The position numbers were made by a program, and so were the translations under genes. DNA of 64,000 nt from Escherichia phage S143_2. Location of the stretch: sequence record MZ189261.1; one strand, written 5' to 3'. A model generated the notes under the pieces. That model was not told the DNA's origin and made no database searches. It worked only from the letters and a program-made list of their open reading frames with translations. Each line of letters starts with the position of its first letter. The stretch's first letter is position 1. This document shows, piece by piece, positions 14,257 through 46,066 of the stretch.

Positions 14257-14778
14257 TCAGTAACCATTATCCTGGCGTTCAAAGTTGTGTTGGTTTTTCA
14301 AGTAGTAAAGTTTAAAGATTTCTTCAGCAGAAAGACCCAGACCTTGGAACATGTTCAGAACGAAGTGCAGAATATCAATCATCTCAAATTTAATTTCAAG
14401 CTGGTCTTCAGGAGACAGTTCATCGATACGACGATTACGATATTCAGCATGTTGTGCTTTCCACGGCTTCCATACACTGCTGGCGGCTTTTTCACCATTG
14501 CTCATACCACCAAGTGAAGTCAGCAGTTCACGGAATTCATCATCAATATAATCTTTCTGATTACGCAGCCAATCAACAACGTCGCCTGCAGTGGCCAATT
14601 CATCAGGATGTTTGTTATGTTCAGGCTTGTCATTTGCCAAACGAACCTGTAAAGATTTCTGCATATCAAGCATTACCTGAAGTGGGTCTTTATCTTCGTG
14701 AATCAGAGCATTAAAATAAGCTTCTTCTGCTTTATCAACACCAGAAATAAGTTGTGAACATTCGTTAAAGTGTGCCAT
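14257..14778 (-). CDS. 56: dCTP pyrophosphatase (dCTPase) gp56
   Basis: MAHFNEC start, MazG-like, conserved LANDKPEH / ETAGDVVDW blocks; start set to ATG behind GGAAA SD. Confidence 0.85.
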   Translation of the reverse strand: MAHFNECSQLISGVDKAEEAYFNALIHEDKDPLQVMLDMQKSLQVRLANDKPEHNKHPDELATAGDVVDWLRNQKDYIDDEFRELLTSLGGMSNGEKAASSVWKPWKAQHAEYRNRRIDELSPEDQLEIKFEMIDILHFVLNMFQGLGLSAEEIFKLYYLKNQHNFERQDNGY

Positions 14779-22853: not shown

Positions 22854-23402
22854 TTAACGAGCCCATTTGATAATTTCTGTAATCAAATTATTACGTTCGC
22901 TTGCATTAAATCCTATAACTTTGTTAGCACCATCATGATTAAGTAATTGATACGTTTGGATTTTGTTATGAATTGCAAACTCTTCAAAATATGAAATGAC
23001 TGTATTAAAACCAAATGAAGACAAAGTAATAAGGTCGTCTTCAAAACTTTCAGTCATTTCGTTACGTGTTAAAATAATTGTGAACACATCATGGTTTTGG
23101 CAAAGACGAACATAATCCTGTTCATAAACGTCAAGAACCGAGTCCACATCTTGTCGAATACGTCCATAAACCCAGTTACTAATATATCCACGGTCTAACA
23201 GATAAATCTTAGTAGGGTCTAAATAATTCAACATCGTTTCGAAACAGCCAACTTCATTTCGAGACTTAACATCGAAACGTCCATCAACTGTTCGTTTAGG
23301 GAAATCAATCTTTACATATCTTTCACTAATTTCCATTATGTCATTAATGAAAGTTGTTTTACCAGCATTATCCGGGCCATCTACTAAAATAATTTTAGCC
23401 AT
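22854..23402 (-). CDS. P-loop nucleotide kinase, thymidylate-kinase-like
   Basis: Walker A DGPDNAGKTT and LLDRGYIS (DRY-like); 182 aa; at the bgt position. Confidence 0.5.
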   Translation of the reverse strand: MAKIILVDGPDNAGKTTFINDIMEISERYVKIDFPKRTVDGRFDVKSRNEVGCFETMLNYLDPTKIYLLDRGYISNWVYGRIRQDVDSVLDVYEQDYVRLCQNHDVFTIILTRNEMTESFEDDLITLSSFGFNTVISYFEEFAIHNKIQTYQLLNHDGANKVIGFNASERNNLITEIIKWAR

Positions 23403-23403
23403 T

Positions 23404-24303
23404 TTATTCCTCGATTACGACATCTTCATATTTAGGTATATTATACGGTGAAGAAATTAAAGCATTAAAGTAGATGAACTCACCAAGACCTGGATGGAAT
23501 ACTTCTTCAGGATTTTCGAAATATTGAATCTTCGGACGTCCTTTAAGAATTTGATAGTACTCAGTTTTAGTTGGTTTAAAAATTCGAATCAACGCTTCTT
23601 CAGGATACTTATTTCTGTCGAAGCTATTATTTGGATCGGTTATATAAAGCGGTTGGCCTAATTGAATTGCACATTCAACCACTTGTTCAAAACGATAGCA
23701 CGGGTCACTAATTCGAAATGGATGAAAAATACCATCTAGATGAATAGGAGCCAAATCACCTACAAGACGCTGCATGATGGAAGGACGTATAACTTTCTGC
23801 GTTACGATAATCTTATTACCATCTGCACCTGCGTTAACCAGCACTTCTTTTTGACGTTCATTCAACACAGTAGTTTGAAGTGAACGATTAACCGACAACA
23901 TATCAGTTTTTAAGAATTCGTCAATATAAAAACGTGGTTTATTAGGGTCTGCAGTGATATTGAAATTGAATTCCACATCAAAAGCGCCGTCATATCCGGT
24001 GATATCTGTGATTAGAAAATCACAATCATAATAAGCAATTAATGAATCAACCACAAATTCATTTTCAGACCAGAAATATTTACGAGTGTTATACGCGTTA
24101 TCTTTATACCATAATGGAACAAACTTAAATTCTGGGAAAAGACGTTCACATTCTTTAATATCAGATGCATTACGTGGATATGTAATCACATCACCAGGAT
24201 TAGCACGGTGCAAATGAAGTTGGAAGTTGCCATCCTTAAGGATAGCGTACTGTCCAGTTTCATAAGACCGCATACTCAAGATAGGTACGCGGAAAATAGC
24301 CAT
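23404..24303 (-). CDS. hypothetical protein (299 aa) at the bgt position
   Basis: start overlaps stop of gene 42 (TAATG); no motif recognised. Confidence 0.5.
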   Translation of the reverse strand: MAIFRVPILSMRSYETGQYAILKDGNFQLHLHRANPGDVITYPRNASDIKECERLFPEFKFVPLWYKDNAYNTRKYFWSENEFVVDSLIAYYDCDFLITDITGYDGAFDVEFNFNITADPNKPRFYIDEFLKTDMLSVNRSLQTTVLNERQKEVLVNAGADGNKIIVTQKVIRPSIMQRLVGDLAPIHLDGIFHPFRISDPCYRFEQVVECAIQLGQPLYITDPNNSFDRNKYPEEALIRIFKPTKTEYYQILKGRPKIQYFENPEEVFHPGLGEFIYFNALISSPYNIPKYEDVVIEE

Positions 24304-25019
24304 TAGTCAAGGAATCCTTTAACATAATCAAAATCACGTTCAAACACATGGGCACTTACCATGGTATGAGTATAATCACCAACTTCTACACCGCATTCGT
24401 TAGCGATATAATGAAGTAATTTTCCTTGGAGATAAAAATCCAACTGCATAACAACAGCACAGTTCTGAGAACGCATATGACAGTGGGTATAAAGCTTACC
24501 ATCACGAATATAATAAGTTACTGAGTCAGTACATGGATATTCAAGCGTTTCGTCTGAATCAAGCAAAGCCTGATCAGAACTTTCTAGAATTTGGAACACA
24601 ACTCTTCGAGAGTTAGGCTTCTCTTTAAGTTCTTTTAGAAGAGCTGGTAATTGGGCCGCAATGCGAGGACCATAGAAAGTGTTGAAGTTCGCCGGCAAAA
24701 CATCTGATTTTGGTTTAGAAATAAATTTAGCGACATTAGGATATGCCTTAAACGCTTCTTCTGCGTTGGTACCACCAGAAATCATAAACTTCCAGAAGTC
24801 TTCGGCATATTCATAAGAGATGCGGTTAATACGTGGGTCAGTCATTTTGAATGATGACGGAGTGTCAACAACTACTGTCATAGACCCAATTTCATTACAA
24901 CGTCCAATACGAGAATCAGTTACGAATTCCGGGTTTTCTAAAATTTCACGATTGACTGCTTTAAATGCGGTTTGAAAATCTGCGGCTTTGATATATTTCA
25001 TTGTGTTATGTTTTCCCAT
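24303..25019 (-). CDS. 42: dCMP hydroxymethylase-like (thymidylate synthase family)
   Basis: 238 aa; EYPCTDSVTYYIRD...MRSQN resembles the catalytic-Cys region of T4 gp42; synteny. Confidence 0.65.
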   Translation of the reverse strand: MGKHNTMKYIKAADFQTAFKAVNREILENPEFVTDSRIGRCNEIGSMTVVVDTPSSFKMTDPRINRISYEYAEDFWKFMISGGTNAEEAFKAYPNVAKFISKPKSDVLPANFNTFYGPRIAAQLPALLKELKEKPNSRRVVFQILESSDQALLDSDETLEYPCTDSVTYYIRDGKLYTHCHMRSQNCAVVMQLDFYLQGKLLHYIANECGVEVGDYTHTMVSAHVFERDFDYVKGFLD

Positions 25020-25038: not shown

Positions 25039-25064
25039 ATTATATACTCAATTCGTAAAGCTTA
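25039..25064 (-). promoter_or_regulatory. possible MotA-box middle promoter upstream of gene 42
   Basis: minus-sense AGCTTTA, 11 nt, TATAAT, GAGGT SD. Confidence 0.3.
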
Positions 25065-25200
25065 TTTGAATTTCTTGACAATGTTGATATAACGTAAAGC
25101 TTCAGCATCGATACTTCCAAGAACACTATGAAGAAATGCATCAGCGTAGTATTCCAATTAAACAGGTTCTTTAATCACTTTAGCCGCTTTAGTTTCAAAC

Positions 25201-25221
25201 AGGCCCATCAGGGCCTTTTTA
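25201..25221 (+). terminator. plus-strand hairpin plus T5
   Basis: aggccc-atca-gggcct followed by ttttt on plus strand. Confidence 0.3.
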
Positions 25222-25297
25222 AGAATTTGTTCGATGCTGTTAATTTTCATAGCCAAAATCTCTTCGTTAAGTTGGTGGTTAAAAGTTTTTCTAGAAA

Positions 25298-26458
25298 TCA
25301 TTCTGGGTACCTCAAAGCGTCGTCAGAGTTAGTTATATCAATAATAGATATAGAATTTTCTGATAACCCATTTTTAGATAACTGACGTTTATAATATCTT
25401 TCACAATATGTACACGTCGTCCCGCAGATTTCATTAGCACAATCGAAATCCGGATGTTTGAACCACCTTTTTTCTAAAAAGCCATCTAACAAAGAGGTTT
25501 CAATATTTACCGTATGTGAAAACTCGGTCTCATTTTCAAGAGTGAAAATGGTCTCTAAAGGCTTCCACAATTCCAACAAATTACCTTCAAATTTTTCAGA
25601 AGCATAAGCTTCAAGAACTTTCAAAATGTAGTCTGTGCTACCTGTACGTCCTGAAACTTTGAATTGAGTGATACCGATATCATTATAAAGTTTCAAATCT
25701 TGAGGACGAACAAAACGAGTTCTCAACCAGTTAAATGGGTCTGTATCACGAGCTTTAATACAGTGCTGCATTGGATATCCATTTAAGGATTTGGCATCAT
25801 CTACTGTAACATCGGTGCTATGGAAAATATAGCAAGAGTCACGATAGCTACAATGTGTTGTATACCCTTTACCAGCATTAGAGCAGAATTCATTTACGAG
25901 AACTTCAAATATTATATTGTTCTTATTACAAAACTCTGCTGCACGCTTCAGGAAAGAAACTGAACGGTTCTTATGAATTCCACAGCAGACCTTTTTGATA
26001 TTATATTGGTCATGCAAGTATTTGATTTGAGTTACAGCATCGACATGTAGAATTGTTGAAACTTCAATCTCAATGTCTTTATTGACTTCACGAACAATTT
26101 CCATAACAACAGGGTTAGCGATAGTAATACGCCATACGCCTATTGACCAAAGATACTGAACATAATCCTGAATAGCTTTCTTCTTCCACTCAACTAGTTC
26201 TCTTTTTGAACCAGGATTTATCGTGTTGAGTGTATAGTTAAAGCAAATACCTAATTCGTTACAACGTTTAACGTAATCTTCTAACATCTTTTTGTCAACG
26301 TCGGGAAGCCTAAAATCAGGTCTGGCTGCTACAAAAGCCATTTCTCTTGTAGAGCCGTATACTTCGTTTATCAAGCTATTAGGATAAGTTTTATTGAGCT
26401 CTACGATTTTATCAAGAAGAGCTAAATCAAAATTCGTTCCGATTTTAAAGGTATTCAT
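25298..26458 (-). CDS. U32-like protein with C-terminal CX3CX2C cysteine cluster
   Basis: 386 aa; EVLVNEFC...C...C resembles U32 core; C-terminal CANEICGTTCTYC. Confidence 0.5.
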   Translation of the reverse strand: MNTFKIGTNFDLALLDKIVELNKTYPNSLINEVYGSTREMAFVAARPDFRLPDVDKKMLEDYVKRCNELGICFNYTLNTINPGSKRELVEWKKKAIQDYVQYLWSIGVWRITIANPVVMEIVREVNKDIEIEVSTILHVDAVTQIKYLHDQYNIKKVCCGIHKNRSVSFLKRAAEFCNKNNIIFEVLVNEFCSNAGKGYTTHCSYRDSCYIFHSTDVTVDDAKSLNGYPMQHCIKARDTDPFNWLRTRFVRPQDLKLYNDIGITQFKVSGRTGSTDYILKVLEAYASEKFEGNLLELWKPLETIFTLENETEFSHTVNIETSLLDGFLEKRWFKHPDFDCANEICGTTCTYCERYYKRQLSKNGLSENSISIIDITNSDDALRYPE

Positions 26459-26513: not shown

Positions 26514-26900
26514 TTATAGATTCGGTTTATATGATTTAAATGTTTCGAATTCGCCTTTATTCATAAGAGCTTTGAATTCGTCAGGACGCATAGCTTTGTC
26601 GTCGATAATCCAATCATATACTGGTTTATGTGTTAGCAAATTATGGTACTTCAATCCAATGTTTGCCAAGTTCTGAATCAGACTTGGGAGAATGTCAATT
26701 GCTATACGACCAGGACCGACTGACTTCATACCGCGAGCAGTGTAAAGCGTTATGGTATGCCCTGCATCATACAGGGCATTAATGGCAGACACCATTTCGA
26801 CGTCTGGTTTGAAGTTCACGTAATCACGATTGTTATTCCACTCTGTTATACAATCATCGACATCAAAACAAAGATTAAGCATGTTTTTTACACGGTGCAT
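26514..26900 (-). CDS. HAD-superfamily phosphatase-like protein
   Basis: FDVDDCIT near N-terminus, TLYTARG, WIIDDKA; start overlaps upstream stop. Confidence 0.45.
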   Translation of the reverse strand: MHRVKNMLNLCFDVDDCITEWNNNRDYVNFKPDVEMVSAINALYDAGHTITLYTARGMKSVGPGRIAIDILPSLIQNLANIGLKYHNLLTHKPVYDWIIDDKAMRPDEFKALMNKGEFETFKSYKPNL

Positions 26901-28585
26901 TAGATTCGTTCCCATTGATGAGTGATATCGCCACCGATTGGACGATAAGAAACACCAGTTTCTTTATCAGTTAGTACCCATTTACCAGGATTTTTTGTAA
27001 TCAGAGTAGCCGTTACAGGTTCTGCTACATCATAACTAATAGTGCCGTCCTGAAGTACACGGCCCATGTTACGTAATTGCTTAGTCAGAAGTTCCATACC
27101 TTTATAATATGCGGCTACCGCTTTAAGTGGATTATTCTTGAAATAACCACCTAATGCAATCCAGATAATTGCCACTGCCAAATGATGATACTCGTTAAAC
27201 GAACTCATCTTTCCATATTTGTAAACTAATGGATTGATGTTAATAGTCACATTACAAGTTGTTTCATCAATAGTAAACTGACCCCAGGTCGGATTAGCGT
27301 TGAATTCATCATAACCTGAAACAGCGTAAAGCACTTTAGCTTCATCATACAATTTTGGCCCGTAAATCTTGGTTTCACCAAAATATCCACGAGGGTCAAT
27401 AAACTTGACTTCGCCGTTATCAGTAATCATAGTATTACTGAAGTTCGGGTCACCATGAATAACAGAGTACTGTCCCTGAGAACGGTTATGATAACGAATA
27501 AGGTGTTCTAAAGCTTGTTTCAGCATTGGCTTCAGACGCCCAATCTTAGTGTAGTTCACATGTGTGATTTTACCAAATGAATCAATCAATGGTTGAATAC
27601 TTTCACAACGATCAATAACTTTCGTATAGAACTCTTTAGTGAAATCACGACGAACAGTTTCAGGACTTACAAAATAAGTGTCTGTGCTGAATTTCAGTGC
27701 GTCTAAAATTGCATCAACAATTTGTGGACGAGCAAGACTTGATTTGGATTTAATATATTCAAATGCCGGCTTACCTTTAATGCGTTCCATTTCAAAGTTA
27801 TTTTCATTAACAGAAACTAACTGAGGAACTGAATCTGATTTCACTTTAAGATACCATGAAATCTCATCTTTCTGAAGAGCTCGGCCCTGTTCGGTTAATG
27901 CGAATTTAGTTACAGTTTCTTCACCAATTTCAACTGCATTAAAACTACGATTAAGTTCACGAACTTCATGAGCTTTTTCAAGTTTAGGCATATCACCTAA
28001 ATCAATTAGATTCATAAGCTCTGATTTATTGAATGCGCTGCCGTAAAGGAATTCTACGAAATCGCGTCCTTTGCAGTATTCATGAATTTCCTCATCAGTA
28101 GAACCCATATAGAATTCCCAGTCTTTGAACTGATAAATTCCTACAACATTACCACCTGTTGAACCTACGTTAGTGATATTTTCACCGTCGAAATTATATC
28201 GACATTCGTCGCCCTTAACATAGATTGCGTTAACATTCCAAGACCATGAACCAAAATCAGGAATAATATCACACCAGTTAACAATTACATTATGGCCGTC
28301 TAAATCTTTGTGTAATTTAGCAAGAGCATAAGCGGAACCATACGCTTCATCAACTGTACGAATAGTCACATTGAACCCTTCTTGCTCACAATAAGCTCGA
28401 ACAGTTTCAGCAAATTTTGAATGAACTACTACAATAATTTCATCTGCGCCAAGGTCAGAATAAATTGTATACAAATTGCTCAGAATAGTGTCTTGTTTAT
28501 AGTTAACAAGCACCTTAGGAATATGATGCGTTATTGGATACAAACGAGTTGCCAGTCCAGCACCAAGAATAACAGCTTTTTTCAT
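26900..28585 (-). CDS. bifunctional sugar-1-phosphate nucleotidyltransferase (N) / sugar kinase (C)
   Basis: N-terminal MKKAVILGAGLATRLYPIT...PK NTase signature; C-terminal HGDPNFSN...IDPRG Brenner motif; 561 aa. Confidence 0.7.
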   Translation of the reverse strand: MKKAVILGAGLATRLYPITHHIPKVLVNYKQDTILSNLYTIYSDLGADEIIVVVHSKFAETVRAYCEQEGFNVTIRTVDEAYGSAYALAKLHKDLDGHNVIVNWCDIIPDFGSWSWNVNAIYVKGDECRYNFDGENITNVGSTGGNVVGIYQFKDWEFYMGSTDEEIHEYCKGRDFVEFLYGSAFNKSELMNLIDLGDMPKLEKAHEVRELNRSFNAVEIGEETVTKFALTEQGRALQKDEISWYLKVKSDSVPQLVSVNENNFEMERIKGKPAFEYIKSKSSLARPQIVDAILDALKFSTDTYFVSPETVRRDFTKEFYTKVIDRCESIQPLIDSFGKITHVNYTKIGRLKPMLKQALEHLIRYHNRSQGQYSVIHGDPNFSNTMITDNGEVKFIDPRGYFGETKIYGPKLYDEAKVLYAVSGYDEFNANPTWGQFTIDETTCNVTININPLVYKYGKMSSFNEYHHLAVAIIWIALGGYFKNNPLKAVAAYYKGMELLTKQLRNMGRVLQDGTISYDVAEPVTATLITKNPGKWVLTDKETGVSYRPIGGDITHQWERI

Positions 28586-28626: not shown

Positions 28627-28770
28627 CTAGTTAAAGCATTCATACTTTGCTTGTAGTCCAATCATAATCCATCCGGTTATAAGAGTCGGAATCATTACTG
28701 GAGCCGTTAAGCTCCAGTAGATAGTCATGACAAGCATCAATAGTAAAAGTCCTATTGTTATTGCTTTCAT
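28627..28770 (-). CDS. small hydrophobic protein (47 aa, below cutoff)
   Basis: ATGA overlap with upstream stop; hand translation MKAITIGLLLLMLVMTIYW... Confidence 0.3.
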   Translation of the reverse strand: MKAITIGLLLLMLVMTIYWSLTAPVMIPTLITGWIMIGLQAKYECFN

Positions 28771-29402
28771 TGTTCGCCTCGTAACATGGCACCTAGTGCA
28801 CCGCCAGGGTGGAACTTAAGGAAGTCATTAGAGGTAAATCCACGTTCAGACGAAAGGTTGATAGCAAACGTATCGATAAGCGCTAACAACAATGTAGTGG
28901 ACATAGTCGGAGCCAGAGAATTCTCATCAACCTCTACTGCGATGCCTGTACAGAAAGAGTAATCAAAAAGGGCTTCATTTTCTTGTGGAATGTCTGGGTT
29001 ACAATGCAACAGAATCTGTTTGACGTTCGGACGAATCATTTTAAGATGCTTAGCCACGCCTATCATTTCTTCAGTTTTACCAGAACGACTAATATGAATC
29101 AACACATCATTAGGCGCAATGAATCCTGCATCACCGTGAGAATAATGCCCGGTGTTCAAGTACATACTCGGGATACCAAGTGAAGCAAATGTCTCAGAAG
29201 CTTTAGTTGCAATATTAGCATTCTTACCCACACCTGTAATAATTACACGACTTTCATAATTACTAAGTCCAGGGCGTCGAAGAGTTTCTAGAATAGCATT
29301 ATAACGAGCAGGGTTTTGACTAATTACTTTGGCCATAGCGGCCAAAGAAGAAGCTTGTTTTATGATTGCGTCAATAGCGATAGTAATAGGAGTAGTTTTC
29401 AT
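28767..29402 (-). CDS. SIS-domain sugar-phosphate isomerase, KdsD-like arabinose-5-phosphate isomerase
   Basis: VIITGVGKN, HGDAG, APTMSTT, FHPGGALG motifs line up with the KdsD SIS domain; 211 aa. Confidence 0.7.
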   Translation of the reverse strand: MKTTPITIAIDAIIKQASSLAAMAKVISQNPARYNAILETLRRPGLSNYESRVIITGVGKNANIATKASETFASLGIPSMYLNTGHYSHGDAGFIAPNDVLIHISRSGKTEEMIGVAKHLKMIRPNVKQILLHCNPDIPQENEALFDYSFCTGIAVEVDENSLAPTMSTTLLLALIDTFAINLSSERGFTSNDFLKFHPGGALGAMLRGEQ

Positions 29403-43781: not shown

Positions 43782-44252
43782 TTAATCATGTTTCCACACC
43801 CCATCGGTATTTGACCAAAGTCGCTGATTATCTGATCCTCGCCACAGCTTTTTAGTCGGAAGATTTTTCTCATACTTCCCATCAATAATAACATCAACAT
43901 ATTTAAGCATTTCTAGTTGTTTAATATCTTCAAACTTATATCCTGTCCACAACCAAATGCTTTTATTGGGATAAAGATTTTTTACTGTTTGAGCAATGCG
44001 ATGAATAACATCTCGGTTATCAGGATAGAGAGGGTCTCCTCCGGTTATAGTTAATCCTTCTATATAATCATTATTCAAACATTCAATCAATTGTTCTAGT
44101 GTTTCACCAGTGAATGGAATACCATTTCTAGCATTCCATGTTGATTTATTATAACACCCTTCGCATTTATGCAAACAACCCGTAACGAAAAGAACGACCC
44201 TGCAACCAGGGCCATTCACAAAATCGCAAGGATAAAATCTATCATAATTCAT
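43782..44252 (-). CDS. nrdG: anaerobic ribonucleotide reductase activating protein NrdG (radical SAM)
   Basis: CLHKCEGC (CX3CX2C), 156 aa, adjacent to nrdD. Confidence 0.9.
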   Translation of the reverse strand: MNYDRFYPCDFVNGPGCRVVLFVTGCLHKCEGCYNKSTWNARNGIPFTGETLEQLIECLNNDYIEGLTITGGDPLYPDNRDVIHRIAQTVKNLYPNKSIWLWTGYKFEDIKQLEMLKYVDVIIDGKYEKNLPTKKLWRGSDNQRLWSNTDGVWKHD

Positions 44253-46066
44253 TGGTGTTTAACCCTATGCATGATTTCTTTATTTTTGCCGAGATTAAAT
44301 CCGCGTTCGTTCGGATTTCCCAAATAACCACAAGTTCTTCTTATTGTGTTCATCTTTTTAGGGTCAGTTTCTCCGCAAACTGAACAAACAAATCCGTTTT
44401 CAGTAGGAGTCATTTCATGGGTACTTCCACATGTAAAACATTTATCTACTGGCATATTAACACCAAAATAATCTAAATGTTGTGCGGCATAATCCCATAC
44501 AGCCTCAAGACCTTTTAAGTTATTTTTCATATCAGGAAGTTCAACATAAGAAATGTGTCCGCCAGTCGCAATGAAATGATATGGGGCTTCGCGAGAAATC
44601 TTTTCAAACGGAGTGATATTTTCTTCTACTGAAACATGGAAACTATTAGTGTACCAGCCTTTATCAGTAACATCCTTTACACTTCCATATTTTTCAGTAT
44701 CAAGTTTACAGAAGCGATAACAAAGGTTTTCAGCAGGTGTAGAATACAAACTAAAAGCAAAACCGGTTCTTTCAGTCCACTGTTTAAGATGAGCATTCAT
44801 TTTAGTTAAAATTTCTTGTCCAATATCACGACCGACAAGAATATTCAATTCGTGAATACCAATGTATCCTAGGGACACTGAACTTCTACCGTTTTTAAAT
44901 AACTCAATTATATCGTCATCAGGTTTAAGACGAACCCCGAATGCACCTTCTTGGTAAAGAATAGGAGCAACAGTCGCTTTAACTCCTTTTAAGGAACTAA
45001 TTCTACACATCAAAGCTTCAAAACACAAATCCATTCGTTCATTGAACAATTCGGCAAATTTCTGTTCATTGAATTGTGTTCCAATATAAGAATCTAACGC
45101 AATGCGAGGAAGATTCAGTGTTACAACACCAAGATTATTGCGTCCATCAAGAATTTCATTACCAGTCGAATCTTTCCATACACTCAAGAAACTACGGCAA
45201 CCCATTGGAGAAACTGGAACTGAAGAACCAGTAATAGCTTTATTATTCTTAACCGAAATAATGTCAGGATACATTCTTTTGCTTGCACATTCTAACGCAA
45301 GTTGTTTAATATCATAGTTCGGATCATCTTTATAAAGATTAACACCTTCTTCAACGAACATAACAAGCTTAGGGAAAATAGGAGTTATTCCATCACGACC
45401 AAGGCCTTTAATGCGGTTTTTAAGAATTGCTTTCTGAATCATTCGTTCAGTCCAGTCGGTTCCTGTACCAAATGTAATTGTTACAAAAGGAGTCTGTCCG
45501 TTTGAACTAAAGAGAGTATTTACTTCATATTCATAAGCTTGGAATGCATCGTATACGTCTTTTTCTGTTTTAGATTGAGCATAATTCAACGCATCAGCGA
45601 TTTGCCATTTTTCTGCATCTTCAACATGTTTAGCGTATGTGCGTTTAACATAAGGAGAAAGAACTTTATCGACATTCGCAAATGTAGTTCCGCCATATTG
45701 GTGTGAAGCAACTTGTGCGGTAATTTGTGCCATAATTGCAGTAGCAACGCCAATAGATTTAGGCGTTTCAATTTGAGCATTGCCTAATTTAAATCCATTC
45801 TCAAGCATCCCCTTTAAATCGACTAAACAGCAATTAGTAAATGGAAGAGCAGGAGAATAATCAATATCATGCATGTGAATGATTCCGCTTTCATGCGCAT
45901 TCATAATAAAAGACGGGACCATATTTTTGGCAATGTGCTTAGACACAATACCAGCCATAAGGTCCCGTTGAGTTGGAAAAACACGAGAATCTTTATTAGC
46001 ATTCTCGTTTAAAAGGTCTTTATTAGTTTTATGAATTAATCCTTCAATTTCTTTTTCAATTTTCAT
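44249..46066 (-). CDS. nrdD: anaerobic ribonucleoside-triphosphate reductase NrdD (class III), uninterrupted
   Basis: 605 aa, C-terminal glycyl-radical motif RTCGYLG, Zn site CFTCGSTHE...CSVCG. Confidence 0.95.
   Translation of the reverse strand: MKIEKEIEGLIHKTNKDLLNENANKDSRVFPTQRDLMAGIVSKHIAKNMVPSFIMNAHESGIIHMHDIDYSPALPFTNCCLVDLKGMLENGFKLGNAQIETPKSIGVATAIMAQITAQVASHQYGGTTFANVDKVLSPYVKRTYAKHVEDAEKWQIADALNYAQSKTEKDVYDAFQAYEYEVNTLFSSNGQTPFVTITFGTGTDWTERMIQKAILKNRIKGLGRDGITPIFPKLVMFVEEGVNLYKDDPNYDIKQLALECASKRMYPDIISVKNNKAITGSSVPVSPMGCRSFLSVWKDSTGNEILDGRNNLGVVTLNLPRIALDSYIGTQFNEQKFAELFNERMDLCFEALMCRISSLKGVKATVAPILYQEGAFGVRLKPDDDIIELFKNGRSSVSLGYIGIHELNILVGRDIGQEILTKMNAHLKQWTERTGFAFSLYSTPAENLCYRFCKLDTEKYGSVKDVTDKGWYTNSFHVSVEENITPFEKISREAPYHFIATGGHISYVELPDMKNNLKGLEAVWDYAAQHLDYFGVNMPVDKCFTCGSTHEMTPTENGFVCSVCGETDPKKMNTIRRTCGYLGNPNERGFNLGKNKEIMHRVKHQ

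What the first reader, a model, noticed from the sequence alone, without database searches (positions are those of the whole stretch)
25298..26458. U32-like protein with a C-terminal CX3CX2C cluster inside the modification island
The core (EVLVNEFC...C...C) resembles the U32 family, whose bacterial members do O2-independent hydroxylation of pyrimidines in RNA and of ubiquinone precursors. The C-terminus carries CANEICGTTCTYC, a CX3CX2C arrangement with an aromatic residue before the last Cys, which is radical-SAM-like. An Fe-S enzyme between a dCMP hydroxymethylase and a sugar-activation module is unexpected and could add a further step to the base or the sugar.
Basis: inference. Interest (0 to 1): 0.6.

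Follow-up and report, generated by a model that had tools for sequence, protein, structure and literature searches.

The report
Likely oxygen-free cytosine hydroxylase in phage
This RB69-type phage gene encodes an iron-sulfur "U32" enzyme that most likely makes 5-hydroxycytosine for the phage's sugar-coated DNA without needing oxygen, using the metabolite prephenate, so the phage could build its protective DNA modification in the oxygen-free gut.

Summary

The neighbouring "dCMP hydroxymethylase" is now known to be a flavin- and O2-dependent 5-hydroxy-dCMP synthase. Its product is arabinosylated.

The new evidence is comparative. In other Straboviridae genera the U32 gene is followed by a chorismate mutase gene. 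In unrelated uncultured phages it sits beside chorismate mutase, a DAHP synthase-chorismate mutase fusion, or DAHP synthase. These are enzymes of the pathway that makes prephenate, the oxygen donor or required metabolite of the characterised U32 hydroxylases (UbiU/V, TrhP, RlhA). Most of those phages have the glycosyltransferase and sugar module but no thymidylate-synthase-like hydroxylase nearby. Acinetobacter and Pseudomonas phages with the same arabinosylation cluster lack U32.

Best reading: an O2-independent, prephenate-dependent C5 hydroxylase of dCMP or cytosine, the anaerobic twin of the flavin enzyme. This is untested biochemically. Two key subscription papers could not be read.

The parts
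25298..26458 (-). U32-family Fe-S protein gene (RB69 gp50 ortholog, 386 aa): the proposed O2-independent, prephenate-dependent C5 hydroxylase
25601..26179 (-). Peptidase_U32 (PF01136) domain, residues 94-286, the core of the TIM barrel
   Evidence: A profile of 108 homologs aligns with E. coli RlhA (23S rRNA 5-hydroxycytidine synthase) over residues 54-285, prob 86%, E 5e-6.
25760..25987 (-). Core conserved cysteines C158, C177, C192, C203, C209 and C233: candidate ligands of the U32 [4Fe-4S] cluster
   Evidence: Invariant or nearly invariant in 108 homologs and in 13 divergent phage U32s. C203 and C209 align with the two Cys of the U32 signature in RlhA, followed by the shared CYIxHA.
25403..25441 (-). 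C-terminal CX4CX3CX2C motif (C340, C345, C349, C352): a four-Cys metal site specific to this phage clade, read as a probable second Fe-S cluster or a structural Zn site
   Evidence: Sequence. All four Cys invariant. Modelled with pLDDT about 95-97. The region lies beyond the parts of the profile that align to RlhA, TrhP and UbiU.
25062..25301 (-). Remnant of the RB69 gp49 gene (79 codons) in the slot where other genera carry chorismate mutase. Here it is cut by a TAA at codon 48 (25158-25160), and its start overlaps the U32 stop.
   Evidence: Intact in RB69 and frameshifted in HY126. No chorismate-mutase similarity.
24303..25019 (-). Thymidylate-synthase homolog, the O2- and flavin-dependent 5-hydroxy-dCMP synthase (RB69 gp48 ortholog): the proposed aerobic counterpart
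   Evidence: Pfam Thymidylat_synt E 2.3e-15. 236/238 identical to RB69 gp48. Function and 18O2 labelling in PMC13326640.
23404..24303 (-). DNA arabinosyltransferase 1 (RB69 gp46:47 ortholog, phrog_3891), which uses the 5-hydroxyl as acceptor
   Evidence: PMC13326640. Distant homologs of this GT sit next to the U32 gene in uncultured phages.
22854..23402 (-). Thymidylate-kinase-like nucleotide kinase (RB69 gp45 ortholog)
   Evidence: phrog_761 E 7e-45; Table 1 of PMC13326640.
26514..26915 (-). HAD phosphatase (AfhF-like, RB69 gp51 ortholog) of the UDP-arabinofuranose pathway
   Evidence: phrog_1238; PMC13326640 section 27.
26900..28585 (-). Bifunctional NTP-transferase / sugar kinase (AfhE-like, RB69 gp52:53 ortholog)
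   Evidence: Pfam NTP_transferase E 8.5e-10 plus kinase-like hits; PMC13326640.
28767..29402 (-). Arabinose-5-phosphate isomerase (SIS domain, RB69 gp55 ortholog)
   Evidence: Pfam SIS E 1e-10 and phrog_5670 E 4e-116.

Best explanation
The gene encodes a U32-family iron-sulfur hydroxylase. I propose that it installs the C5 hydroxyl on cytosine without O2 and takes the oxygen atom from prephenate, releasing phenylpyruvate and CO2, as proposed for UbiU/V, TrhP and RlhA. The substrate is most likely dCMP, because this phage destroys dCTP and must polymerise 5-hydroxy-dCTP.

On this reading it is the anaerobic twin of the adjacent thymidylate-synthase-like 5-hydroxy-dCMP synthase, which needs flavin and O2. 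Either enzyme feeds 5-hydroxy-dCMP to the kinases, the polymerase and the DNA arabinosyltransferases. The phage can then make arabinosyl-5-hydroxycytosine DNA both in air and in the anoxic gut, just as it carries both aerobic-type functions and the anaerobic ribonucleotide reductase NrdD/G.

The core Cys set would hold the catalytic or electron-transfer [4Fe-4S] cluster. The clade-specific C-terminal CX4CX3CX2C would hold a second cluster, acting as a built-in electron relay, or a structural metal.

Shown: family, fold, Cys conservation, purifying selection, and genomic linkage to prephenate-pathway and DNA-glycosylation genes. Inferred: substrate, O2-independence, use of prephenate, and the nature of the metal sites.

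For: (2) Ten conserved Cys. Two of them align with the U32 Fe-S signature Cys of RlhA.

(3) Prephenate link in Straboviridae. A type II chorismate mutase gene follows the U32 gene, directly in Entb_45, Thanatos-1, LC53 and PhiKpNIH-6 and after one small ORF in Morganella Rgz1 and Proteus Pm5461. Pfam CM_2 scores run from E 2e-8 to 3e-12. tblastn with that mutase finds 51 of 50,697 phage records, all at this locus. In Thanatos-1 the cluster is rearranged but the U32 and mutase genes stay adjacent with overlapping stop and start. Arg11, Arg28, Lys39, Ser84 and Gln88 (E. coli numbering) are conserved in all the phage mutases.

(4) Independent repeats in non-Straboviridae viral contigs (U32 45-55% identical). 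Chorismate mutase lies immediately downstream in L050, L053, L055, L056, L059 and L060. A fused DAHP synthase-chorismate mutase plus a HAD gene lies upstream in L045, L047 and L048. DAHP synthase lies immediately downstream in L005 and L033.

(5) Link to DNA glycosylation without the O2-dependent enzyme. In those contigs the U32 gene abuts homologs of the 5-hydroxycytosine arabinosyltransferase and/or the isomerase and NTP-transferase-kinase sugar module. It also lies close to DnaE, dCMP deaminase, UDG, dNK and NT5C genes. No gp48-like thymidylate-synthase homolog is found within 10 kb; the only hit is a canonical ThyA in L035.

(6) Presence and absence. U32 (with the mutase) is an insertion between the HAD and TS-homolog genes. 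It is missing from the otherwise syntenic clusters of Acinetobacter phage Apostate, Pseudomonas phage PspYZU05 and E. coli Dhakavirus WG01. Of 57 Acinetobacter phage records with the sugar enzyme, at most a couple could carry U32. All U32-bearing hosts are Enterobacterales or Shewanella, which I know to be facultative anaerobes.

(7) Need. The TS homolog takes its oxygen from O2 (18O2 labelling, PMC13326640). The window also encodes a dCTPase and NrdD/NrdG.

(8) Precedent. Prephenate is the O donor for UbiU/V, and the chorismate-mutase domain alone rescues the defect (PMC10990095). Prephenate is required for TrhP and RlhA, and TrhP/TrhO form an anaerobic/aerobic pair for ho5U (PMC6599085, PMC5727448).

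(9) U32 is the most conserved protein of the cluster across genera: 82-86% identity against 41-88% for the others.
Against: There is no biochemical or genetic test of this protein. No U32 enzyme has yet been reconstituted in vitro (PMC10990095).

This phage's own genus (Mosigvirus) has no chorismate mutase. The slot holds the unrelated gp49, here with a premature stop. The enzyme would therefore have to rely on the host's PheA/TyrA prephenate.

Dhakaviruses infect E. coli and carry the arabinosylation cluster without U32, so the host-lifestyle correlation is imperfect.

Only two of the four canonical U32 cluster Cys align. The CX3C pair of RlhA has no counterpart, so cluster ligation differs.

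The published guess for RB69 gp50 is 'sugar or heterocycle reductase' (PMC13326640 Table 1).

TS homologs could lie beyond the 8-10 kb flanks examined in the metagenomic contigs.

Two key papers (He et al. 2026, Nat Chem Biol; Mahler et al. 2025, Cell Host Microbe) could not be read and may assign, or rule out, a role.
Confidence: 0.55

Rival explanations
1. It is a U32 hydroxylase that works on a polymer rather than on dCMP. It would hydroxylate cytosine (or uracil) already in DNA, or a host or phage RNA as RlhA and TrhP do.
For: The characterised pyrimidine-hydroxylating U32 proteins act on RNA polymers (PMC5727448, PMC6599085), and RlhA is the closest E. coli paralog. In several uncultured phages the U32 gene directly abuts the DNA glycosyltransferase and DnaE, with no nucleotide kinase seen next to it (L036, L040, L046, L061).
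Against: The protein is compact (386 aa). The Pfam scan finds only the PF01136 domain, and nothing like the DUF3656 region of RlhA. This phage encodes a dCTPase, so little or no cytosine should enter its DNA to be hydroxylated afterwards. Some homologs sit beside dCMP deaminase, thymidylate kinase, dNK and NT5C, which are mononucleotide enzymes.
Confidence: 0.17
2. It is a sugar-pathway enzyme, a reductase, epimerase or similar acting on an arabinose or other sugar intermediate. This matches the published label 'sugar or heterocycle reductase' and the database annotation 'enzyme involved in UDP-arabinose biosynthesis'.
For: It sits next to the sugar-activation genes. Table 1 of PMC13326640 carries the label, and the annotation of phage ChristianSchoenbein says the same. 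In uncultured phages it often follows the isomerase, NTP-transferase-kinase and HAD genes.
Against: The route from ribulose-5-P to UDP-arabinofuranose is already accounted for by the isomerase, AfhE and AfhF (PMC13326640). Phages without U32 (DLP3, and the clusters of Apostate, PspYZU05 and WG01) have the same sugar genes, and DLP3 makes the same sugar modification. No U32 member is known to act on sugars. Adjacency to chorismate mutase or DAHP synthase has no rationale in sugar chemistry. Some homologs have no sugar module nearby (L002, L003, L006).
Confidence: 0.1
3. It adds a different, additional modification, for example a second oxidation of the base or hydroxylation of another nucleotide, rather than duplicating the 5-hydroxylation.
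For: Homologs beside dCMP deaminase (L002, L006) could work on dUMP. Phage modification pathways are diverse.
Against: RB69 DNA contains only mono- and di-arabinosyl-5-hydroxy-dC besides canonical dA, dG and dT (PMC13326640). That is the same base as in the U32-less DLP3.
Confidence: 0.08
4. It is a radical-SAM-like enzyme that uses the C-terminal CX3CX2C cluster to cleave SAM, in a non-canonical TIM-barrel arrangement like ThiC.
Against: A fourth invariant Cys (C340) completes a four-Cys site and leaves no obvious open iron for SAM. There is no Radical_SAM Pfam hit at E<=0.1. The best fold match is U32, and the ThiC score is at the level of generic TIM barrels. Genuine radical-SAM/SPASM proteins occur as separate genes near some homologs.
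Confidence: 0.04
5. It is a protease, the historical 'peptidase U32 / collagenase' annotation.
For: Database product names say so. Some U32 proteins were reported as collagenolytic (discussed in PMC5727448).
Against: The genomic context is nucleotide and DNA-modification genes throughout. The invariant residues are cysteines typical of Fe-S sites. The characterised E. coli members are hydroxylation factors.
Confidence: 0.02

Closest known systems
RlhA (YdcP), the E. coli factor for 23S rRNA 5-hydroxycytidine-2501
   Same: It has a U32 domain and makes the same chemical product on the same base (C5-hydroxycytosine). It requires Fe-S biogenesis and prephenate (PMC5727448). It is the best profile match among the E. 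coli U32 proteins, and the CY(I)xHA Cys-pair region aligns.
   Different: RlhA is 653 aa, has a DUF3656 region, and acts on pre-50S particles. Its cluster motif includes a CX3C pair that is absent here. The phage protein is 386 aa, has a unique C-terminal CX4CX3CX2C, and sits in a deoxynucleotide and DNA-modification context.
TrhP / TrhO dual pathway for tRNA ho5U34
   Same: It has the same logic as proposed here: a prephenate-dependent, O2-independent U32 route and an unrelated O2-dependent route make the same 5-hydroxypyrimidine, which suits organisms living in both regimes (PMC6599085).
   Different: The substrate there is tRNA uridine, and the O2-dependent partner is a rhodanese-family protein rather than a flavin-bound thymidylate-synthase homolog. 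The profile match to TrhP is weak (E 2e-3, N-terminal half only).
UbiU-UbiV (with UbiT), O2-independent ubiquinone hydroxylases
   Same: They are U32 Fe-S proteins that replace flavin/O2 hydroxylases (UbiI/H/F) under anoxia. Prephenate has been shown to be the O donor, and the chorismate-mutase domain alone rescues the defect (PMC10990095).
   Different: They form a heterodimer and act on a lipid substrate with a carrier protein. NCBIfam UbiU scores only 19 bits against a 440-bit cut-off, so the phage protein is not a member of that equivalog. The phage genes pair the enzyme with its own chorismate mutase or DAHP synthase.
Mk0906 (PDB 5d88), U32 'peptidase' of Methanopyrus kandleri
   Different: Identity is only 11-14%. 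It is a 247-residue protein of unknown function, and only 221 of the 386 phage residues align with it.
RB69 gp48 / DLP3 gp80 / HY126 homolog: thymidylate-synthase-like 5-hydroxy-dCMP synthase
   Same: It has the same proposed product and role in the pathway, and it is encoded about 280 bp away in the same orientation.
   Different: Its fold and cofactor are unrelated (flavin), and its oxygen comes from O2 (PMC13326640). It is present in all arabinosyl-5hoC Straboviridae, whereas U32 is present in only some.

Membership tests
Peptidase_U32 / U32 hydroxylase family (Pfam PF01136) | Sequence match to the family profile above the curated threshold | tested here: met
   E 6.3e-11, 42.4 bits against a 22.4-bit cut-off, residues 94-286. 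All listed homologs but three carry PF01136.
Peptidase_U32 / U32 hydroxylase family (Pfam PF01136) | TIM-barrel fold like the solved U32 protein | tested here: met
Peptidase_U32 / U32 hydroxylase family (Pfam PF01136) | Four conserved Cys that ligate a [4Fe-4S] cluster | tested here: inconclusive
   C203 and C209 align with the signature Cys pair of RlhA. The downstream CX3C pair of RlhA has no counterpart. Invariant C192, C233, C158 and C177 are available instead. Distances could not be measured because no coordinates were available, and no spectroscopy exists.
Peptidase_U32 / U32 hydroxylase family (Pfam PF01136) | Dependence on prephenate | not testable with these tools
   There is indirect support only. 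Chorismate mutase or DAHP synthase genes are adjacent in at least four gene arrangements across phage lineages. None is present in this window.
Peptidase_U32 / U32 hydroxylase family (Pfam PF01136) | O2-independent hydroxylation of an aromatic or heteroaromatic carbon | not testable with these tools
   Inferred from family precedent, from the absence of the gene in phages of the strict aerobe Acinetobacter, and from co-occurrence with an O2-dependent isofunctional enzyme.
UbiU equivalog (NCBIfam NF047963) | Score above the equivalog cut-off | tested here: not met
   19.4 bits against a 440-bit cut-off. hhalign against UbiU gives prob 7%, and against UbiV no match.
RlhA / TrhP subfamilies | Subfamily-specific extra domains (the DUF3656 region in RlhA) and full-length similarity | tested here: not met
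   Only the U32 core aligns: RlhA residues 46-258 of 653 and TrhP residues 2-138 of 453. No NCBIfam TrhP or RlhA hit was found for the window protein.
Radical SAM superfamily (PF04055) | CX3CX2C with three Cys and an open iron, located in the first strand-loop of a partial barrel | tested here: not met
   The motif is present literally, but at residues 345-352 of 386, after the barrel, and with a fourth invariant Cys at 340.
Radical SAM superfamily (PF04055) | Profile or fold match to radical-SAM enzymes | tested here: not met

The most novel reading that the evidence does not exclude
This clade of U32 enzymes would be a widespread, previously unrecognised, oxygen-independent route to 5-hydroxypyrimidines for viral DNA hypermodification. 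In many uncultured, low-GC, DnaE-encoding phages it would be the only hydroxylase supplying the acceptor for DNA glycosyltransferases. Phages would carry chorismate mutase, or DAHP synthase-chorismate mutase, as auxiliary metabolic genes specifically to supply prephenate as the oxygen donor. In RB69-like phages it would work alongside the flavin/O2 enzyme as an aerobic/anaerobic pair. Because the substrate would be a soluble mononucleotide, it could be the first U32 hydroxylase amenable to in vitro reconstitution.
Probability: 0.4. Interest if true: 0.85.

Novelty: new variant of a known kind. Interest (0 to 1): 0.75.

Why it matters
(1) It would explain how gut phages whose DNA depends on an O2-requiring hydroxylase can still replicate in anoxic hosts. 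It would also add a second, chemically unrelated entry point to glycosylated 5-hydroxycytosine DNA.

(2) It would extend prephenate-dependent hydroxylation, known for ubiquinone, tRNA and rRNA, to DNA precursors and to viruses. It would also give a rationale for chorismate mutase and DAHP synthase genes in phage genomes.

(3) U32 hydroxylase chemistry has never been reconstituted in vitro (PMC10990095). A small soluble enzyme with a nucleotide substrate, and a natural partner that makes the co-substrate, would make that open mechanistic question directly testable.

(4) Phage therapy and phage engineering are usually assessed aerobically. A conditionally essential anaerobic modification gene would matter for predicting restriction evasion in the gut.

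Tried and rejected
- A sequence search of the PDB with the protein and with a 25-sequence profile gave only chance hits.
- NCBIfam gave only a sub-threshold UbiU hit.
- hhalign against UbiV found nothing.
- I asked whether the small ORF downstream of U32 in this window is a decayed chorismate mutase. Pfam, a custom chorismate-mutase HMM (two iterations) and tblastn all found nothing, in the slot or anywhere in the 64 kb. It is the ortholog of RB69 gp49, unrelated to chorismate mutase by sequence, so that idea was rejected.
- Alignment of gp49 to the small ORFs after U32 in the Morganella and Proteus phages showed no meaningful similarity.
- The afdb50 fold library was unavailable.
- Model coordinates are not exposed, so Cys-Cys distances could not be measured.
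- He et al. 2026 (Nat Chem Biol), Mahler et al. 2025 (Cell Host Microbe) and Lauhon 2019 could not be read.
- Literature searches for Afh gene names, for HY126 and for 'chorismate mutase + U32 + bacteriophage' found no paper that assigns a function to this gene.
- The Thanatos and RB69-2018 papers do not discuss it, and a phage Tn-seq preprint gave no data on it.
- The protease, radical-SAM and sugar-enzyme readings were considered and ranked low, for the reasons given under the rival explanations.
Full report
**What the window is.** The region is more than 98% identical to Mosigvirus (RB69-like, T4-like) coliphages such as JQD51, ST0 and JS09. All genes around the finding lie on the minus strand. 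In order they are:
- gp41 helicase and UvsX;
- a thymidylate-kinase-like kinase (22854-23402);
- a 299-aa protein of phrog_3891 (23404-24303);
- a thymidylate-synthase (TS) homolog (24303-25019);
- a small ORF;
- the ORF in question (25298-26458);
- a HAD phosphatase (26514-26915);
- a 561-aa NTP-transferase/kinase (26900-28585);
- a SIS-domain arabinose-5-P isomerase (28767-29402);
- DNA polymerase gp43.

This is the arabinosylation cluster of RB69. A 2026 paper (PMC13326640) showed that RB69 DNA carries mono- and di-arabinosyl-5-hydroxycytosine, not arabinosyl-hydroxymethylcytosine. It also showed that the TS homolog gp48 is a 5-hydroxy-dCMP synthase that binds a flavin and takes its oxygen from O2 (18O2 labelling). 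The other genes make UDP-arabinofuranose and transfer it onto DNA. The window's TS homolog is 236/238 identical to RB69 gp48, and the ORF in question is 383/386 identical to RB69 gp50. That paper lists gp50 only in a table, as 'sugar or heterocycle reductase' with a fold match to 5d88, and reports no experiment on it.

**Checking the observation.** The ORF, its coordinates and both quoted motifs are correct. Pfam Peptidase_U32 matches residues 94-286 at E 6.3e-11, above the curated cut-off.

A database search returned 341 protein clusters. In an alignment of 108 of them, down to 47% identity, nine Cys are invariant: C158, C192, C203, C209, C233, C340, C345, C349 and C352. C177 is nearly invariant. 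The same ten Cys are conserved in 13 divergent phage representatives. Against phage HY126 the gene shows 23 synonymous and 2 non-synonymous changes, giving dN/dS 0.02. Across Straboviridae genera it is the most conserved protein of the cluster, at 82-86% identity against 41-88% for its neighbours.

A profile of the family matches E. coli RlhA, the factor for 5-hydroxycytidine-2501 in 23S rRNA, with prob 86% and E 5e-6 over 202 columns. C203 and C209 fall on the two Cys of the U32 signature, followed by the shared CYIxHA. TrhP and UbiU match only weakly and UbiV not at all. The UbiU equivalog model scores far below its threshold. The protein is therefore a U32 member but belongs to none of the characterised subfamilies. 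The canonical downstream CX3C pair is missing, and a new C-terminal four-Cys site is present.

**The decisive context: chorismate mutase in Straboviridae.** A tblastn of gp50 against 50,697 phage records found 221 hits, all at 80% identity or more. All named hosts are Enterobacterales or Shewanella. One hit (Enterobacter phage Entb_45) is annotated with a chorismate mutase whose start overlaps the U32 stop. That 79-aa protein matches Pfam CM_2 at E 2.4e-10.

The mutase occurs in 51 phage records, always at this locus. The hosts are Klebsiella, Serratia, Yersinia, Enterobacter, Edwardsiella, Erwinia, Pectobacterium, Kosakonia, Providencia, Morganella, Shewanella, and Escherichia (phage EcS1). 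I confirmed CM_2 above threshold in five further genera, including a Proteus phage that the tblastn had missed. In Shewanella phage Thanatos-1 the cluster is rearranged, yet the U32 and mutase genes remain an overlapping pair. The residues I recall as the E. coli chorismate mutase active site (Arg11, Arg28, Lys39, Ser84, Gln88) are invariant in all the phage proteins.

Chorismate mutase makes prephenate. Prephenate is the demonstrated oxygen donor for UbiU/V; there, expression of the PheA chorismate-mutase domain alone rescues the defect (PMC10990095). It is also the required metabolite for TrhP and RlhA (PMC6599085, PMC5727448).

**Independent repeats outside Straboviridae.** Homologs at 45-58% identity lie on phage-like metagenomic and IMG/VR contigs that have low GC and DnaE-type polymerases. 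The U32 gene there has these neighbours:
- Chorismate mutase immediately downstream in six loci (L050, L053, L055, L056, L059, L060; CM_2 E about 1e-14).
- A fused DAHP synthase-chorismate mutase, then a HAD gene, upstream in three loci (L045, L047, L048; DAHP_synth_1 E 2.5e-36 and CM_2 E 7.9e-18).
- A DAHP synthase immediately downstream in two loci (L005, L033). This is the Bacillus-type 3-deoxy-7-phosphoheptulonate synthase (E 2.6e-70), not KDO8P synthase.

DAHP synthase is the entry enzyme of the shikimate pathway that leads to prephenate. Every chorismate mutase found in these roughly 20-kb loci lies within about 1.6 kb of the U32 gene.

In the same loci the U32 gene abuts distant homologs of the RB69 DNA arabinosyltransferase (phrog_3891) and/or the isomerase, NTP-transferase-kinase and HAD sugar module. 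In others it abuts dCMP deaminase, UDG and thymidylate kinase (L002, L006), or NT5C, dNK and a deoxyribosyltransferase (L003). No gp48-like TS homolog was found within the flanks. The single TS hit (L035) is a canonical ThyA at E 2.6e-72. The simplest reading is that in these phages the U32 enzyme itself creates the hydroxyl that the glycosyltransferase decorates.

**Presence and absence.** In Straboviridae, U32 (with chorismate mutase) is a cassette inserted between the HAD and TS-homolog genes. The otherwise syntenic clusters of Acinetobacter phage Apostate, Pseudomonas phage PspYZU05 and E. coli Dhakavirus WG01 lack both genes.

The sugar-activating enzyme occurs in 368 phage records, 57 of them Acinetobacter phages. 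Acinetobacter is not among the ten most frequent host names for U32, and the remaining seven names account for only 12 records in total. Acinetobacter is a strict aerobe, and all U32-bearing hosts are facultative anaerobes (my own knowledge). The Dhakaviruses are an exception, and they weaken the correlation.

**Why the phage would need it.** The window encodes a dCTPase (14259-14778) and the anaerobic ribonucleotide reductase NrdD/NrdG (43782-46066). A T4-like phage that destroys dCTP and depends on an O2-requiring enzyme for its replacement nucleotide would be unable to replicate in an anoxic cell. An O2-independent hydroxylase removes that block. The arrangement parallels UbiI/H/F against UbiU/V and TrhO against TrhP. 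The same argument favours dCMP over DNA as the substrate in this phage.

**Caveats.**
- Mosigviruses, including this window, have no chorismate mutase. The slot holds gp49, a 79-codon ORF unrelated to chorismate mutase. It is intact in RB69, carries CAA to TAA at codon 48 here and in ST0, and is frameshifted in HY126. It diverges about eight times faster than gp48 or gp50. The enzyme would have to use host prephenate.
- Nothing has been tested biochemically, and no U32 enzyme has been reconstituted in vitro.
- Cys geometry could not be checked.
- He et al. 2026 and Mahler et al. 2025 could not be read. As summarised in PMC13326640, the reconstituted pathway involves the TS homolog, AfhE, AfhF and glycosyltransferases, and gp50 is not mentioned. 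That fits a conditional role but does not prove one.
- No held paper links phage U32 with chorismate mutase.

**Verdict.** The most likely function is an oxygen-independent, prephenate-dependent C5 hydroxylase that supplies 5-hydroxycytosine nucleotides for DNA hypermodification. That would be a new variant of the U32 hydroxylases, carrying an extra four-Cys site. Confidence is about 0.55 for this mechanism. The remainder is spread over action on a polymer substrate, a sugar-pathway role, a different modification, radical-SAM chemistry and a protease.

Noticed in passing
window 25062-25301 (-), stop codon at 25158-25160: The ortholog of RB69 gp49 (79 aa, intact in RB69) carries a CAA to TAA nonsense change at codon 48 here and in phage ST0, and two 1-bp insertions in HY126. 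It differs from RB69 at 5 of 79 positions, against 3 of 386 for gp50, so it looks like a gene in decay. It occupies exactly the slot, and has the same length, as the chorismate mutase of other genera, but shows no detectable similarity to it.
   Followed up: yes
That protein has been shown experimentally to be a flavin- and O2-dependent 5-hydroxy-dCMP synthase (PMC13326640). Many database records still label it thymidylate synthase or hydroxymethylase.
   Followed up: yes
window 43782-44252 (-), 44249-46066 (-), 14259-14778 (-): The window also encodes the anaerobic ribonucleotide reductase activase NrdG, NrdD (605 aa) and the dCTPase. The first 225 nt of the ST0 nrdD gene did not align with the window at the blastn level, although a full 605-aa ORF is present, so the N-terminal coding part is divergent.
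   Followed up: partly
L003 8001-15428 (and L004): On an 86-kb metagenomic contig the U32 homolog sits with NT5C, an NMN-transporter-like gene, a deoxynucleoside kinase, a radical-SAM/SPASM protein, a second and very distant U32 paralog (22% identity) and a nucleoside deoxyribosyltransferase. This may be a different nucleoside-modification pathway, with a U32 pair reminiscent of UbiU/UbiV.
   Followed up: partly
L002 7447-9939; L006 7504-9826: On a 466-kb contig and a related 60-kb contig the order is DnaE, dCMP deaminase, U32, then a conserved 250-aa protein with no family match. Thymidylate kinase and UDG genes lie upstream. This hints at hydroxylation of a deoxyuridine or deoxycytidine nucleotide in very large phages.
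   Followed up: partly
L045 8411-9433; L047 9-971; L048 7302-8357: These phage contigs encode a fused DAHP synthase with a C-terminal chorismate mutase, followed by a HAD hydrolase and then the U32 gene. As far as I know, shikimate-pathway auxiliary genes have not been discussed for phages.
   Followed up: partly
window 25301-25372 (-), residues 363-386 of the U32 protein: The last 24 or so residues (LSKNGLSENSISIIDITNSDDALRYPE) are modelled with low confidence. They form an acidic tail ending in RYPE that is shared by the enterobacterial Straboviridae homologs (RYSE in Shewanella phage Thanatos) and absent from the metagenomic homologs. It may be a docking tail for a partner protein.
   Followed up: no
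L001, L008-L012 against the window: Across Straboviridae genera the U32 protein (82-86% identity) is more conserved than the TS homolog (72-83%), the glycosyltransferase (48-68%) and the NTP-transferase-kinase (42-72%). The adjacent chorismate mutase is only 30-70% conserved. This points to unusually tight constraint on the U32 gene, or to recent spread of it.
   Followed up: partly
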